Below are positions 4,112-60,812 of a stretch of 64,000 nt of DNA, piece by piece. A program made the translations under genes and the position numbers. Source of the DNA: Escherichia phage phiEc_1; the sequence record LC768462.1; one strand, given 5' to 3'. Under the pieces are notes generated by a model that was not told the origin of the DNA, searched no databases, and worked only from the letters and a program-made list of their open reading frames with translations. Within the stretch, counting starts at the first letter, position 1, and each line of letters starts with the position of its first letter.

Positions 4112-4317
4112 TCACTAACATTTCAGAATTTAAGAAAGCACCTTCCCGCTTGTTAGGCCGTCGTGTTGTATATCTTTACAGCAATAAAGGTAAATGTACA
4201 ACTGGACGAATTACAACGGTGAGTAGTGCTAACAAGAAACTGTTAAAGTTATGCGTAGCTATGGATGACGGTACAATCCTGCTACGCAGTTGGAAATCGT
4301 TTAGTTTACTAGATTAA
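4108..4317 (+). CDS. small early protein
   Basis: ORF track; ATGA start/stop overlap. Confidence 0.5.
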   Translation: MITNISEFKKAPSRLLGRRVVYLYSNKGKCTTGRITTVSSANKKLLKLCVAMDDGTILLRSWKSFSLLD

Positions 4318-4386
4318 GTTATTTGTTCAAGCCTATCGCCTTGATGGGCTTGCCCGATATAACTTATCACTGAAAGGAATAAGATT

Positions 4387-9456: not shown

Positions 9457-9532
9457 GCGCTCTTAGCTCAATGGATAGAGCAGTAGCCTTCTAAGCTATT
9501 GGTTACAGGTTCGAGTCCTGTAGGGCGCACCA
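9457..9532 (+). tRNA. tRNA-Arg(UCU): tRNA-Arg (anticodon UCU, reads AGA), encoded CCA
   Basis: Cloverleaf folded by hand: 7-bp acceptor stem, D stem GCTC/GAGC, anticodon loop CTTCTAA, T arm ACAGG-TTCGAGT-CCTGT, discriminator A, CCA. Confidence 0.9.
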
Positions 9533-38980: not shown

Positions 38981-39458
38981 AGAACCTGTAGTACATAAAG
39001 ACTCTATCAGAGATCAATATAATGAGATGTTAAAGAAACAAGCTGATTCTAATCTTCGTTATCAGAGGATAGTAGAACAATCTAACTTTAAAGGTTTACT
39101 TGAATGGTAACTTATATTGTTTACTTCTTAGCTTTCTTAGGAATAATCTTTTTATCTATTCTTATTGAATTTGGTTTAAGTAAGTTAGTTAATTATTTAG
39201 GTAATAAGTAATTATTATTCTTTTAAATAGAGAATCAAAGTCCCTAGGAGTCCCTACAACCTAAATCAAGGATTCCTTAATTCTCTATTTTTATCTCGCA
39301 GGTGGCTCCTGCCCTTCGGTACTTGCAAGGGATTCTGTGAATTGCCCAATATACAAGCCTGCAATAACTTTATCAGCTATACAATATATACATTACTAGT
39401 GTGTTATATCTACTACCAAAGATACTTATATTATATAGTACTCTTATCGGTATAAGCG

Positions 39459-39467
39459 TAATGTATA
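39459..39467 (+). promoter_or_regulatory. candidate phage-sigma promoter element (TAATGTATA)
   Basis: Exact 9-mer 60 bp upstream of SSB start, inside an AT-rich intergenic region. Confidence 0.45.
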
Positions 39468-39526
39468 CTATACATAACCGCTCAAAGAGAGCAACAATCT
39501 TTCAAATTAAATAAGGAAATTACAAT

Positions 39527-40273
39527 ATGTCTATGATTCCAACTATCGCAACTGCTTCCCGTAAATCCAACTACGATGTAATCCCTGATGGTGAATACGA
39601 AGCACGTATCGTTCGTGTAGTAGGTTTGGGTGTTCACAATCGTGACCCTTGGATTGACCCGAAGACCAAAGCAGTAACTCCTAAGAATCCGGCTTTCCGT
39701 ATGGATTTAGCTTTCGAGCTGATTGGTGTTGATGCTACTGGTAAAGATTCCGATGGTAAGGCATTAGAACCACGTCCGGCTTGCCAGTTCAAGAGCTATG
39801 ATGTAAACCCACGAGCTAAAAACTCTGGTATTCTTGATCTTTGCAAAATGATTGACCCAAGTATTCAAGCACTGAAAGGTGATCTGTCTTGGTTCAAGGA
39901 TGTTCTGTTAGGTCAGCCTGTTAACATTCTGGTTAACTCTTATACTAACAAAGCTGGTGAAGTTAAAAACTCCATCAAGACCATTTCTCCAATCCCAACC
40001 AAATATCGTGCAGCAGTTGGTGAAGCTCGTAGTCCTCTGGTATTCTTCGAACCGTATGCTGAAACCGATGAGAACGTAGCATCCTATCAACTGATGTTCC
40101 CGTTCCAGCGCAACCTGCTTACTCAAGCTAATGACGCTAAGAACATGCCTCTGGCTGGTCGTGAAATTACTCGTGCTTCTGAAACAGAGCAGAAAGAAGC
40201 TACTCCTTCAATCCCTACGATTGATAAAGAGCCTGCTTCTACTTACGAAGACGACAACGATAGCCCATTCTAA
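39527..40273 (+). CDS. ssb: single-stranded DNA-binding protein (T7 gp2.5-like)
   Basis: Acidic C-terminal tail ...YEDDNDSPF ending in Phe; position in replication module. Confidence 0.6.
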   Translation: MSMIPTIATASRKSNYDVIPDGEYEARIVRVVGLGVHNRDPWIDPKTKAVTPKNPAFRMDLAFELIGVDATGKDSDGKALEPRPACQFKSYDVNPRAKNSGILDLCKMIDPSIQALKGDLSWFKDVLLGQPVNILVNSYTNKAGEVKNSIKTISPIPTKYRAAVGEARSPLVFFEPYAETDENVASYQLMFPFQRNLLTQANDAKNMPLAGREITRASETEQKEATPSIPTIDKEPASTYEDDNDSPF

Positions 40274-40294: not shown

Positions 40295-40319
40295 AGCCAC
40301 CTCCGGGTGGCTTTTTTCG
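40295..40319 (+). terminator. rho-independent terminator
   Basis: AGCCACC-TCCG-GGTGGCT then TTTTTTCG. Confidence 0.7.
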
Positions 40320-40330
40320 TTGGAGACAAC

Positions 40331-40681
40331 ATGCAAAACACATTAAGTGATAACTTAGGGTTTATCGTTTTCTCAGCTCTTGTATTCTTTGGTGGTATGA
40401 AGTTTAACGAATATCAAACAGACAGCAGTAATCTGGACAAAGAGAAGCACCAGCAAGAGTTAGAGATTGAAAGAAGTAGAGCAGCTGATGAAGTTGCTCA
40501 GAGAGTTCTTACCGGTTTATCTAACTGGAAGAAGAACACGGAAACCGTTTATAAAGAGATGCATTATGAGAAAACTAAACCAGTTTTTTATAATGTCTGC
40601 GCTAGTGATGAGTATGTCAGCTTGTTCAACGAGCGACAACAGCAGGCAATCAATGCCCTTACCAACAAACCTAAAAGCTGA
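40331..40681 (+). CDS. i-spanin (Rz-like)
   Basis: N-terminal TM LGFIVFSALVFFGG then coiled-coil domain; embedded out-of-frame lipoprotein gene. Confidence 0.55.
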   Translation: MQNTLSDNLGFIVFSALVFFGGMKFNEYQTDSSNLDKEKHQQELEIERSRAADEVAQRVLTGLSNWKKNTETVYKEMHYEKTKPVFYNVCASDEYVSLFNERQQQAINALTNKPKS

Positions 40682-40825
40682 ATGTAGGGTTGACCTACCT
40701 CTTTTAGAAAGTGCTCAAGGAAAAGCACTAGCCACTACGTTGGAGTGGTATCAGGACCAGTACACAGAATGTGCTGCTAATCACAATGGATTGTTAGAAG
40801 CTCTGAAAGAGCGTGGAATAGAATA

Positions 40826-40826
<1 letters not shown>
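40566..40826 (+). CDS. o-spanin (Rz1-like lipoprotein), overlapping the 3' end of the i-spanin gene in another frame
   Basis: Lipoprotein signal MRKLNQFFIMSALVMSMSAC; Pro-containing mature part; starts inside 40331..40681 and extends past its stop. Confidence 0.5.
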
Positions 40827-42312
<1,486 letters not shown>

Positions 42313-60072: not shown

Positions 60073-60564
60073 TTAATATTTACCTTCGGTGTAAAGATTA
60101 GCTTCTGCAACTCTTCTATTATGAAGACCCTGACTTCTCTGCTTCTCTCCCTTGACCGTTATTTTATCCCAACGAAGAAATTCGGAATAAACATCCCCCT
60201 TAACATCTCCATTGATTACCTTCCTTAACTTAGATGTGCTCAAAGCCCCACTGCCAACATTGAAGTTGAAAGAAGTGAGTGCATCAAACTCATGAACTAG
60301 TAAAGGAACCTTTATGTTCTTCTGAGTAGCACGAACAGAGTCTTGTGTGTCTCTATCTAGCAGAGCTAGACAATCCTCTATAGAATACGTTAATCCTTGT
60401 CTAACCGGATAACCATTCATATCGCGCGTAGCCCCTACACATATAGTCCAGATACCTGCGGAATCTTTATAAGCCTTTGTTCTCATACCCTCATGCTTCA
60501 TGATGAATTCCATTCCAGCTGGGCTTAAGTTTAGTTGTACAGGTGGCAATGCGACGTTATCCAT
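60073..60564 (-). CDS. endolysin, GH24 lysozyme (T4-lysozyme-like)
   Basis: EGMRTKAYKDSAGIWTICVGAT catalytic motif; FDALTSFNFNVG. Confidence 0.85.
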   Translation of the reverse strand: MDNVALPPVQLNLSPAGMEFIMKHEGMRTKAYKDSAGIWTICVGATRDMNGYPVRQGLTYSIEDCLALLDRDTQDSVRATQKNIKVPLLVHEFDALTSFNFNVGSGALSTSKLRKVINGDVKGDVYSEFLRWDKITVKGEKQRSQGLHNRRVAEANLYTEGKY

Positions 60565-60593: not shown

Positions 60594-60812
60594 TTAAGGT
60601 AGTATCTTTCTCAGAGCGTTAGATTCAGCATCAGGGCAAATAACAACTAAGTTATTTTGAATTGTTCTCTGCTTGCATTGAGAGCTAAGCTTCTCTACTG
60701 GAGCAGGGACAGTTACTAATGGATGAACTGCGCCTACAGGAACTGCGGTGGATACCACAACACCTGCGCCTAAACATATTAAACCATATGCAGCTTGTTT
60801 CATCATTTTCAT
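60594..60812 (-). CDS. small Pro-rich membrane protein adjacent to endolysin (possible holin or lysis accessory)
   Basis: AGGAG SD; single N-terminal hydrophobic segment; no canonical lipobox. Confidence 0.4.
   Translation of the reverse strand: MKMMKQAAYGLICLGAGVVVSTAVPVGAVHPLVTVPAPVEKLSSQCKQRTIQNNLVVICPDAESNALRKILP

What the first reader, a model, noticed from the sequence alone, without database searches (positions are those of the whole stretch)
40331..40826. Overlapping spanin gene pair encoded in the middle module, about 20 kb from the endolysin
An i-spanin-like gene (TM plus coiled coil) contains, in another frame, the start of a lipoprotein gene whose product has a lipobox Cys and Pro-containing mature part. 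The lipoprotein gene extends beyond the i-spanin stop, as in the overlapped Rz/Rz1 arrangement. The endolysin (60073-60564) and a small membrane protein (60594-60812) are in the late module on the opposite strand, so the lysis functions are dispersed.
Basis: partly seen in the sequence, partly recalled or inferred. Interest (0 to 1): 0.45.

Follow-up and report, generated by a model that had tools for sequence, protein, structure and literature searches.

The report
Known overlapping spanin genes of a phiEco32-like phage

Summary
The window is a Kuravirus (phiEco32-like) E. coli podophage, 99.4% identical to phages TH06 and YW01. At 40331-40681 (+) lies a 116-aa protein with one N-terminal membrane helix. 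In the +1 frame, an 86-aa lipoprotein gene starts at 40566 and runs to 40826 (signal peptide, lipobox MSA-C20, Ser at +2). This is the "overlapped" two-component spanin layout, with 116 nt shared.

[quoted passage not shown] PhiEco32 is listed in the 2018 spanin census. PHROG 1152 (Rz-like spanin) matches at E = 2.7e-37.

The second frame is real:
- It stays open, with ATG, lipobox Cys and Cys69, in relatives down to 28% identity (FelixO1, phiEa104, 9NA, a Proteus phage).
- In 9NA and the Proteus phage the pair sits right after the endolysin/peptidase gene.
- Its non-overlapping part varies mostly at third codon positions.

The lysozyme-type endolysin (60073-60564, -) and putative holin (60594-60812, -) lie 19.2 kb away among tail genes. 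Such dispersal is known from T4 and is visible in published Kuravirus annotations.

Two details fail: the mature lipoprotein is not proline-rich, and a coiled coil was not demonstrable. Verdict: already known, low interest.

The parts
40331..40681 (+). i-spanin gene (116 aa, homolog of phiEco32 gp39): N-terminal membrane helix (about residues 9-23 or 3-25), short linker, charged and probably helical periplasmic domain with one invariant Cys (C90)
   Evidence: ORF and sequence. PHROG 1152 'Rz-like spanin' E = 2.7e-37. 100% identical to phage Paul i-spanin QEG08132.1. C90 invariant in alignment A1. AlphaFold secondary structure at low confidence.
40566..40826 (+). o-spanin gene (86 aa, full-length version of phiEco32 gp38): signal peptide with lipobox MSA|C20, Ser at +2, flexible linker (about residues 21-42), C-terminal helix (about 50-82); Cys40 and invariant Cys69
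   Evidence: 100% identical to phage Paul o-spanin QEG08131.1, annotated there with LipoP SpII score 18.03 and cleavage at 19/20. PHROG 2425 E = 3.5e-27 and PHROG 456 'Rz-like spanin' E = 0.0013. Invariant M1, C20 and C69 in alignment A2. AlphaFold C-terminal helix, pLDDT 70-84.
40566..40681 (+). 116-nt dual-coding overlap: i-spanin residues 79-116 in frame 0 and o-spanin residues 1-38 in frame +1
   Evidence: In 11 aligned relatives, 22% of columns vary here, against 37% in the i-only part and 46% in the o-only part. Changes fall mainly on i-frame third positions, which are o-frame second positions.
40322..40325 (+). Shine-Dalgarno GGAG, 6 nt before the i-spanin ATG
   Evidence: Sequence. Phage Paul annotates an RBS at the same place.
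40554..40559 (+). Weak Shine-Dalgarno-like AAGAGA, 6 nt before the o-spanin ATG, inside the i-spanin gene
   Evidence: Sequence. Phage Paul annotates an RBS equivalent to window 40556-40558. The sequence is conserved in all 11 aligned relatives.
40295..40318 (+). Intrinsic terminator (7-bp GC-rich stem, 4-nt loop, T6) between the upstream gene 39527-40273 and the i-spanin gene
   Evidence: Terminator scan. RNA fold -17.3 kcal/mol, z = -3.06. Annotated as a terminator at the same position in phage Paul and phage 4E8.
39459..39467 (+). Exact match to the phiEco32 gp36-sigma promoter motif TAATGTATA, upstream of gene 39527-40273; likely the nearest promoter feeding the spanin genes by terminator read-through (inferred)
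   Evidence: Motif search. Motif definition from PMC4281155 and PMC12276001. The motif count over the whole window is at chance level, so the assignment rests on position only.
60073..60564 (-). Endolysin, T4/lambda-type lysozyme fold family, with no N-terminal membrane segment
   Evidence: Pfam PF00959 E = 3.6e-32 and PHROG 7 E = 4.1e-46. Maximum 17-residue hydropathy only 0.71.
60594..60812 (-). 72-aa protein with one N-terminal hydrophobic segment, annotated as holin in relatives (function unverified)
   Evidence: PHROG 11161 'holin' E = 2.6e-49. Hydropathy 2.05 for residues 10-26. Annotated holin in EK5, MN03, SU10 and others.

Best explanation
This is the two-component spanin of a phiEco32-like (Kuravirus) phage, encoded in the overlapped architecture.

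Shown by sequence:
- One gene makes a type-II inner-membrane protein (i-spanin, N-terminal anchor, periplasmic C-terminal domain).
- The second gene starts in the +1 frame inside the first. It makes a lipoprotein whose signal, lipobox Cys and non-Asp +2 residue predict lipidation and Lol-dependent sorting to the outer membrane (o-spanin).

Inferred from the lambda Rz/Rz1 and T4 PseT.3/PseT.2 paradigms:
- The two proteins bind through their C-terminal parts to form a bridge across the periplasm.
- The bridge is stabilised by disulfide bonds through the conserved periplasmic cysteines (i-spanin C90; o-spanin C69 and possibly C40).
- The complexes are held inactive by the intact peptidoglycan mesh.
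- The holin (probably 60594-60812) releases the lysozyme-type endolysin (60073-60564) and the wall is degraded. The complexes then fuse or disrupt the outer membrane, completing lysis.

Because spanins are harmless until the wall is gone, they need not be co-transcribed with holin and endolysin. Here they sit in the middle-gene block beside a macro-domain gene and the phage sigma factor gene, directly after an intrinsic terminator. They are probably made at a modest level by read-through, ahead of the late lysis genes (inferred).
For: - Identity: the window is 99.4% identical to Kuravirus phages. Both proteins are 100% identical to the annotated i-spanin and o-spanin of phage Paul.
- Family: PHROG 1152 Rz-like spanin, E = 2.7e-37. 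PhiEco32 is listed in the spanin census in the JH2/FelixO1 i-spanin family and in the NJ01/ECBP2/KBNP1711/PhiEco32 o-spanin group.
- Topology signals: membrane helix, lipobox, Ser at +2.
- Conservation of the pair and of the overlap in FelixO1 (107 nt), phiEa104 (137 nt), 9NA (164 nt) and Proteus phage RS10pmA, at 27-42% protein identity. M1, the lipobox Cys and C69 of the o-spanin and C90 of the i-spanin are invariant.
- In 9NA and RS10pmA the homologous pair lies directly downstream of the annotated endolysin/peptidase gene, which ties the family to lysis.
- Purifying selection on the o frame outside the overlap: 41 of 67 variable sites are at third positions, and 72% of codon differences are synonymous. 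Variability is reduced inside the overlap.
- No better lipoprotein candidate exists anywhere in the window.
- Spanin genes away from holin and endolysin are documented for T4 (PMC6139136).
Against: - No experiment on this family was found. Function rests on homology, topology signals and gene context.
- A coiled coil could not be shown, and the structure models have low confidence.
- There is no detectable sequence similarity to lambda Rz/Rz1 in Pfam, and the mature o-spanin is not proline-rich.
- The lipobox has Met at -3 (MSAC), not the commonest Leu.
- The pair sits behind a terminator in a non-late module, so expression timing and level are unknown. The phiEco32 transcription papers could not be read.
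Confidence: 0.9

Rival explanations
1. The pair is an envelope-modifying system unrelated to lysis. One example would be a lipoprotein-based superinfection-exclusion or receptor-masking function, like the T5 Llp or lambdoid Cor lipoproteins. Expression before the late phase would explain why it lies in the middle module, far from holin and endolysin.
For: Location among middle genes next to the sigma factor and a macro-domain gene, 19.2 kb from the endolysin. No experimental proof of spanin activity for this family was found.
Against: Homologs of both genes in phages 9NA and RS10pmA lie immediately after the endolysin/peptidase gene, in a classic lysis cassette. The lipoprotein is always paired and overlapped with a type-II membrane protein, and conserved periplasmic cysteines are present. 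No other spanin candidate exists in the window. T4 likewise keeps its proven spanins away from its holin and endolysin genes.
Confidence: 0.05
2. Only the 116-aa membrane protein is a real gene. The +1-frame lipoprotein ORF is a chance open frame and is not translated, as implied by the many GenBank records that annotate only a 174-nt ORF starting downstream.
For: Most records (phiEco32, SU10, ECBP2, 4E8, IME267 and others) annotate a truncated 57-aa 'hypothetical protein' without a signal peptide. The Shine-Dalgarno-like sequence before 40566 is weak.
Against: The full frame with ATG, n-region, hydrophobic core and lipobox Cys is kept in all 11 aligned kuravirus-group relatives and in distant myo- and siphophages. 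The 145 nt beyond the i-spanin stop evolve mostly at third positions of this frame. When a homing endonuclease gene splits the overlap in E20-1 and Bas86, a new signal peptide with a lipobox has replaced the lost one. The spanin census explains the truncated calls as gene-caller bias against overlapped genes.
Confidence: 0.02

Closest known systems
phiEco32 gp39/gp38 and the phage Paul i-spanin/o-spanin (CPT_Paul_036/035, QEG08132.1/QEG08131.1); JH2/FelixO1 i-spanin family and NJ01/ECBP2/KBNP1711/PhiEco32 o-spanin group of Kongari et al. 2018
   Same: Same genes: 100% protein identity to Paul and 99% to phiEco32. Same overlap, same upstream terminator, same neighbours (gp40 homolog upstream; macro-domain gene and sigma factor gene downstream).
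   Different: Nothing of substance. The phiEco32 RefSeq record still starts gp38 at an internal ATG, so the signal peptide is missing there.
Phage P2 LysB/LysC (prototype of the overlapped two-component spanin architecture)
   Same: The o-spanin gene starts inside the i-spanin gene in another frame and extends past its stop. Same predicted topologies (PMC6139136).
   Different: No sequence similarity was detected here. P2 has its spanins in the lysis cassette, whereas here they are 19.2 kb from the endolysin.
Phage T4 PseT.3/PseT.2
   Same: [quoted passage not shown] The sizes are similar (117 and 83 aa in T4; 116 and 86 aa here). The o-spanin has a predicted C-terminal helix rather than a proline-rich coil. 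In the FelixO1 relatives the pair lies two genes after polynucleotide kinase, recalling the T4 pseT neighbourhood (the T4 gene order is from my own knowledge).
   Different: In T4 the genes are separated, not overlapped. The T4 i-spanin has no periplasmic Cys, whereas here C90 is invariant. No sequence similarity appeared at tblastn E < 1e-3.
Lambda Rz/Rz1
   Same: Presumed mechanism and topology: a type-II inner-membrane protein plus an outer-membrane lipoprotein encoded in the +1 frame, with periplasmic cysteines.
   Different: In lambda, Rz1 is fully embedded in Rz and is 25% proline and unstructured (my own knowledge). Here the genes are overlapped, there are 3 Pro in 67 residues, and a C-terminal helix is predicted. 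No Pfam Rz or Rz1 family match.

Membership tests
Two-component spanin, overlapped architecture | i-spanin: small protein with a single N-terminal transmembrane domain (N-in, C-out) | tested here: met
   Residues 9-23 have Kyte-Doolittle mean 2.23, and this is the only hydrophobic segment. AlphaFold helix 3-25. Phage Paul annotation: TMpred transmembrane domain at residues 8-23.
Two-component spanin, overlapped architecture | i-spanin periplasmic domain largely alpha-helical with coiled-coil propensity | tested here: inconclusive
   Helices 36-76, 79-91 and 93-111 are predicted, but mean pLDDT is 56 from a single sequence. A crude heptad a/d hydrophobicity test was not better than shuffles (288/2000). 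No dedicated coiled-coil predictor was available.
Two-component spanin, overlapped architecture | o-spanin: signal peptidase II signal with lipobox Cys, and no Asp at +2 (outer-membrane sorting) | tested here: met
   MRKLNQFFIMSALVMSMSA-C20-S. It is the best of only 4 lipobox candidates in six frames of the window. C20 is invariant in distant homologs. The identical Paul protein has LipoP SpII score 18.03.
Two-component spanin, overlapped architecture | o-spanin gene starts inside the i-spanin gene in another frame and ends beyond its stop | tested here: met
   o-spanin start at 40566 is at +1 relative to the i-spanin start at 40331. The i-spanin stops at 40681 and the o-spanin at 40826, giving a 116-nt overlap. 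The same layout occurs in FelixO1, phiEa104, 9NA and RS10pmA.
Two-component spanin, overlapped architecture | At least one periplasmic cysteine available for homotypic disulfide links | tested here: met
   i-spanin C90 is invariant. o-spanin has C40, and C69 is invariant. The general rule comes from PMC6139136. Actual disulfide formation was not tested.
Two-component spanin, overlapped architecture | Sequence membership in a curated spanin family | tested here: met
   PHROG 1152, E = 2.7e-37. Listed for PhiEco32 in the spanin census. Identical to annotated spanins.
Two-component spanin, overlapped architecture | Both frames maintained by selection | tested here: met
   Variable columns: i-only 37%, overlap 22%, o-only 46%. 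The o-only part has 41 of 67 variable sites at third positions and 72% synonymous codon differences.
Two-component spanin, overlapped architecture | Required for outer-membrane disruption; complements lambda Rz/Rz1 defects; the two proteins form a complex | not testable with these tools
   No experimental paper on this family was found.
Lambda Rz/Rz1 sequence family (embedded) | Sequence homology to lambda Rz and Rz1; Rz1 fully embedded and proline-rich | tested here: not met
   No Pfam match to any Rz or Rz1 family at E <= 1. The o-spanin extends 145 nt past the i-spanin stop. Only 3 Pro in 67 mature residues.

The most novel reading that the evidence does not exclude
The position of the spanin pair is functional rather than accidental. 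It lies behind a conserved intrinsic terminator in the middle-gene block, next to the phage sigma factor gene. Under this reading, kuraviruses (like T4 and FelixO1-type phages) deliberately make a small, read-through-limited amount of spanin before the late phase. The outer-membrane lipoprotein can then be lipidated and sorted while host export machinery still works. The i-spanin/o-spanin/macro-domain block would travel as a unit between Ounavirinae and Gordonclarkvirinae.
Probability: 0.15. Interest if true: 0.3.

Novelty: already known. Interest (0 to 1): 0.08.

Why it matters
It matters little for discovery. The gene pair, its overlapped layout and its separation from holin and endolysin are already in GenBank annotations (phage Paul, EK5, ShigP1), in the 2018 spanin census, and in recent Kuravirus genome papers.

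The practical value is for annotation. Most deposited relatives, including the phiEco32 reference record, still call the o-spanin from an internal ATG that removes its signal peptide. The correct start for this window is 40566.

Tried and rejected
- Pfam scan of both proteins found no spanin family. Only PHROGs recognises them.
- PDB sequence search found no meaningful hits.
- Single-sequence AlphaFold models of both proteins had low confidence (pLDDT 56 and 59). I used them only for secondary structure. I ran no further search on deeper alignments, because the identity of the genes was already settled.
- The crude heptad test for a coiled coil was not significant.
- My first lipobox regex scan was faulty and missed the o-spanin itself. 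I replaced it with a corrected scan.
- Whole-window matches to the gp36-type promoter motif TAATGTATA are at chance level (20 found, 20 expected). The promoter assignment at 39459 therefore rests on position only.
- A sigma-70-like match at 40566-40594 inside the overlap was disregarded, because the scan as a whole was at chance level (23 found, 20.2 expected).
- The phiEco32 genome and transcription papers (PMC2587145, PMC3275717) are not held. The phage Paul announcement does not mention lysis genes.
- I tested whether the HNH gene inside the spanin overlap of E20-1 and Bas86 is a group I intron. Rfam found no hit at E <= 1. Both genes are intact without splicing, so I rejected the intron reading in favour of a free-standing endonuclease with target duplication.

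Full report
**Identity of the window.** The 1.8 kb around the finding is 99.4% identical to Escherichia phages TH06 and YW01 and 96.7% identical to phiEco32. All 98 matching records are Escherichia or Shigella phages, and the best matches are phiEco32-like podophages of genus Kuravirus, subfamily Gordonclarkvirinae. The finding corresponds to phiEco32 genes 39 and 38.

**Observation.** The ORF list and sequence confirm two genes.
- The first runs from ATG 40331 to TGA 40681 (116 aa) and is preceded by GGAG at 40322-40325.
- The second runs from ATG 40566 to TAA 40826 (86 aa), in the +1 frame.
- The two share 116 nt, and the second continues 145 nt past the stop of the first.

Protein 1 has one hydrophobic segment (residues 9-23, LGFIVFSALVFFGGM). 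It is followed by a charged 86-residue domain with a single Cys (C90).

Protein 2 begins MRKLNQFFIMSALVMSMSA-C20-STS. That gives a basic n-region, a hydrophobic core, a lipobox-like MSAC, and Ser rather than Asp at +2. Its mature part is 67 residues with Cys40, Cys69 and only 3 prolines.

A corrected six-frame scan for lipoprotein signals found only four candidates in the 64 kb. This one scored best and is the only one overlapping a membrane-protein gene (the first regex was faulty).

The endolysin lies at 60073-60564 on the minus strand (Pfam Phage_lysozyme 3.6e-32, PHROG 7). The 72-aa membrane protein lies at 60594-60812 on the minus strand (PHROG 11161 'holin', 2.6e-49). Both are as described, between tail genes, 19,247 nt from the o-spanin stop.

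**Is the second frame real?** Three lines of evidence say yes.
1. tblastn finds the 86-aa protein at 80% coverage or more in 253 phage records, and the i-spanin in 434.
2. The overlapped layout recurs in distant phages at 27-42% protein identity: FelixO1 (107-nt overlap), Erwinia phage phiEa104 (137 nt), Salmonella phage 9NA (164 nt) and Proteus phage RS10pmA. M1, the lipobox Cys and C69 of the o-spanin are invariant, as is C90 of the i-spanin.
3. In an alignment of 11 kuravirus-group sequences down to 77% DNA identity, variable columns make up 37% of the i-only part, 22% of the overlap and 46% of the o-only part.
   - In the o-only part, 41 of 67 variable sites are third positions of the o frame, and 72% of codon differences are synonymous.
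   - Within the overlap, changes fall mainly on i-frame third positions. The degenerate signal peptide absorbs them, while the ATG, the basic residues and the [ST][AS]C lipobox persist.

**What it is.** PHROGs assigns protein 1 to family 1152 'Rz-like spanin' (E = 2.7e-37). It assigns protein 2 to family 2425 (unnamed, 3.5e-27) and weakly to the spanin family 456. Both proteins are 100% identical to CPT_Paul_036 (i-spanin) and CPT_Paul_035 (o-spanin) of phage Paul. There the annotators recorded a TMpred transmembrane domain at residues 8-23 and a LipoP SpII site between residues 19 and 20.

PhiEco32 is listed in the spanin census of Kongari et al. 2018 (PMC6139136). Its i-spanin is in the JH2 family together with FelixO1, and its o-spanin is in the NJ01/ECBP2/KBNP1711/PhiEco32 group. 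Recent Kuravirus genome papers also describe the pair:
- ZCEC16: 'overlapping spanins', ORFs 35 and 36, with holin and endolysin at ORFs 15 and 16.
- vAPECPW12: holin and endolysin at 2.2-2.9 kb, and o-spanin on the complementary strand at 21.8 kb.

In 9NA and RS10pmA the homologous pair sits directly after the endolysin/peptidase gene. This links the family to lysis independently of the annotation labels.

**Mechanism (inferred from lambda Rz/Rz1 and T4 PseT.3/PseT.2).** The following is established knowledge, partly quoted.
- The inner-membrane i-spanin and the outer-membrane lipoprotein o-spanin bind through their C-terminal parts and span the periplasm.
- Homotypic disulfides through the conserved cysteines stabilise the complex.
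- The intact murein keeps the complex inactive until holin and endolysin act.
- The complex then disrupts or fuses the outer membrane.

This logic explains why spanin genes tolerate expression outside the late lysis unit. [quoted passage not shown]

Low-confidence single-sequence AlphaFold models suggest two layouts. The i-spanin has a membrane helix (3-25), a linker, and helices 36-76, 79-91 and 93-111. The o-spanin has a disordered linker (21-42) and a C-terminal helix (50-82, pLDDT 70-84). That is closer to the T4 o-spanin description than to proline-rich lambda Rz1. A coiled coil could not be demonstrated.

**Context and regulation.**
- By homology, the pair lies in the block called middle genes in phiEco32 and SU10.
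- A strong intrinsic terminator (40295-40318, -17.3 kcal/mol, z = -3.06) lies between the upstream gene and the i-spanin Shine-Dalgarno sequence. It is annotated at the same place in Paul and 4E8.
- The nearest upstream match to the gp36-sigma promoter motif TAATGTATA is at 39459.
- The sigma factor gene downstream has its own sigma-70-type promoter with an 18-nt spacer at 41238-41267, as described for SU10.
- I therefore infer modest read-through expression of the spanins. I could not check transcript data, because the phiEco32 papers are not held.

**Comparison and novelty.** The genes work like a two-component spanin and are a member of that class in the overlapped architecture, whose prototype is P2 LysB/LysC. 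They are not members of the lambda Rz/Rz1 sequence family: there is no Pfam hit, they are not embedded, and the o-spanin is not proline-rich. Every element of the finding is already recorded in public annotations and literature. The finding is correct but already known, and I score its interest at 0.08.

**Side observations.** The most notable one is off-window. In phages E20-1 and Bas86 an HNH homing-endonuclease gene has landed in the spanin overlap.
- The i-spanin keeps its frame and acquires a new 14-residue tail.
- The old o-spanin lipobox is destroyed in the upstream copy.
- A new signal peptide with a lipobox is encoded in another frame of the HNH gene's 3' end.
- A relic of the old i-spanin 3' end persists because it overlaps the start of the mature o-spanin.
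- Rfam finds no group I intron there, although the Bas86 record joins the i-spanin across the insertion.

This repeats, in a second family, the overlapped-to-separated conversion described for the T5-like phages Shivani and phiR201, which carry a GIY-YIG endonuclease between their spanin genes.

Noticed in passing
L007 (Escherichia phage E20-1) 1492-2529; L009 (phage OliverMaurmann_Bas86) 721-1758: An HNH homing-endonuclease gene is inserted in the i-/o-spanin overlap. The i-spanin gets a new C-terminal tail. The o-spanin gets a new signal peptide and lipobox, encoded in another frame of the HNH 3' end. A relic of the old i-spanin 3' end remains. This converts the overlapped architecture to a separated one through a target duplication of about 45 nt. 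The Bas86 record annotates the i-spanin as a two-piece join (intron-like), but Rfam finds no group I intron and both genes are intact without splicing. A precedent exists in the T5-like phages Shivani and phiR201.
   Followed up: partly
L008 (phage SU10) 1284-1697: A different HNH endonuclease gene sits between the gp40 homolog and the i-spanin gene in SU10, FH3, 1-6af and KM01, where the query matched in two pieces. The spanin neighbourhood appears to be a hotspot for homing endonuclease insertion.
   Followed up: no
L002 (phiEco32) 4154-4327, and the same in L008, L010, L012-L016: Most deposited relatives, including the phiEco32 RefSeq record, annotate the o-spanin as a 57-aa 'hypothetical protein' starting at an internal ATG (MPLPTNL...), so the signal peptide and lipobox are missing. 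In phage 9NA the o-spanin homolog (L004 2501-2749) is not annotated at all, and an antisense ORF (gp60) overlaps its 3' end (2729-2749).
   Followed up: yes
window 40826-41266 (+); L006 2998-3780; L003 4258-5043: The gene that starts at the last base of the o-spanin stop codon encodes a macro-domain protein (Pfam Macro 1.3e-10; PHROG 335 'phosphatase'). A member of the same PHROG family follows the spanin pair in phiEa104 (immediately) and in FelixO1 (six genes later); BLASTP E = 2e-6 and 2e-9. This suggests a shared spanin-macro block between Ounavirinae and Gordonclarkvirinae. The ECBP2-type relatives have a 74-aa gene there instead.
   Followed up: partly
window 38981-39526: A long (about 550 bp) AT-rich non-coding stretch lies upstream of gene 39527-40273. 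It carries several copies of the gp36-type promoter motif in both orientations: 39378-39395 (-), 39459-39467 (+) and 39469-39477 (-), the last two forming a near-palindrome. It also contains a GC-rich hairpin-like segment around 39290-39335. No Rfam family or tRNA was found there.
   Followed up: no
window 60594-60812 (-) and 60073-60564 (-): The 72-aa 'holin' has only one N-terminal hydrophobic segment (residues about 6-29), followed by a possible signal-peptidase site (VGA|V). A 2026 paper on a related phage reports that only a signal peptide, not a transmembrane domain, is predicted, so the holin assignment is unverified. Some records call the endolysin a SAR-endolysin, but it has no hydrophobic N-terminus (maximum 17-residue hydropathy 0.71).
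   Followed up: partly
window 9457-9532 (+): A single tRNA-Arg (anticodon TCT) gene, as reported for related kuraviruses.
   Followed up: no
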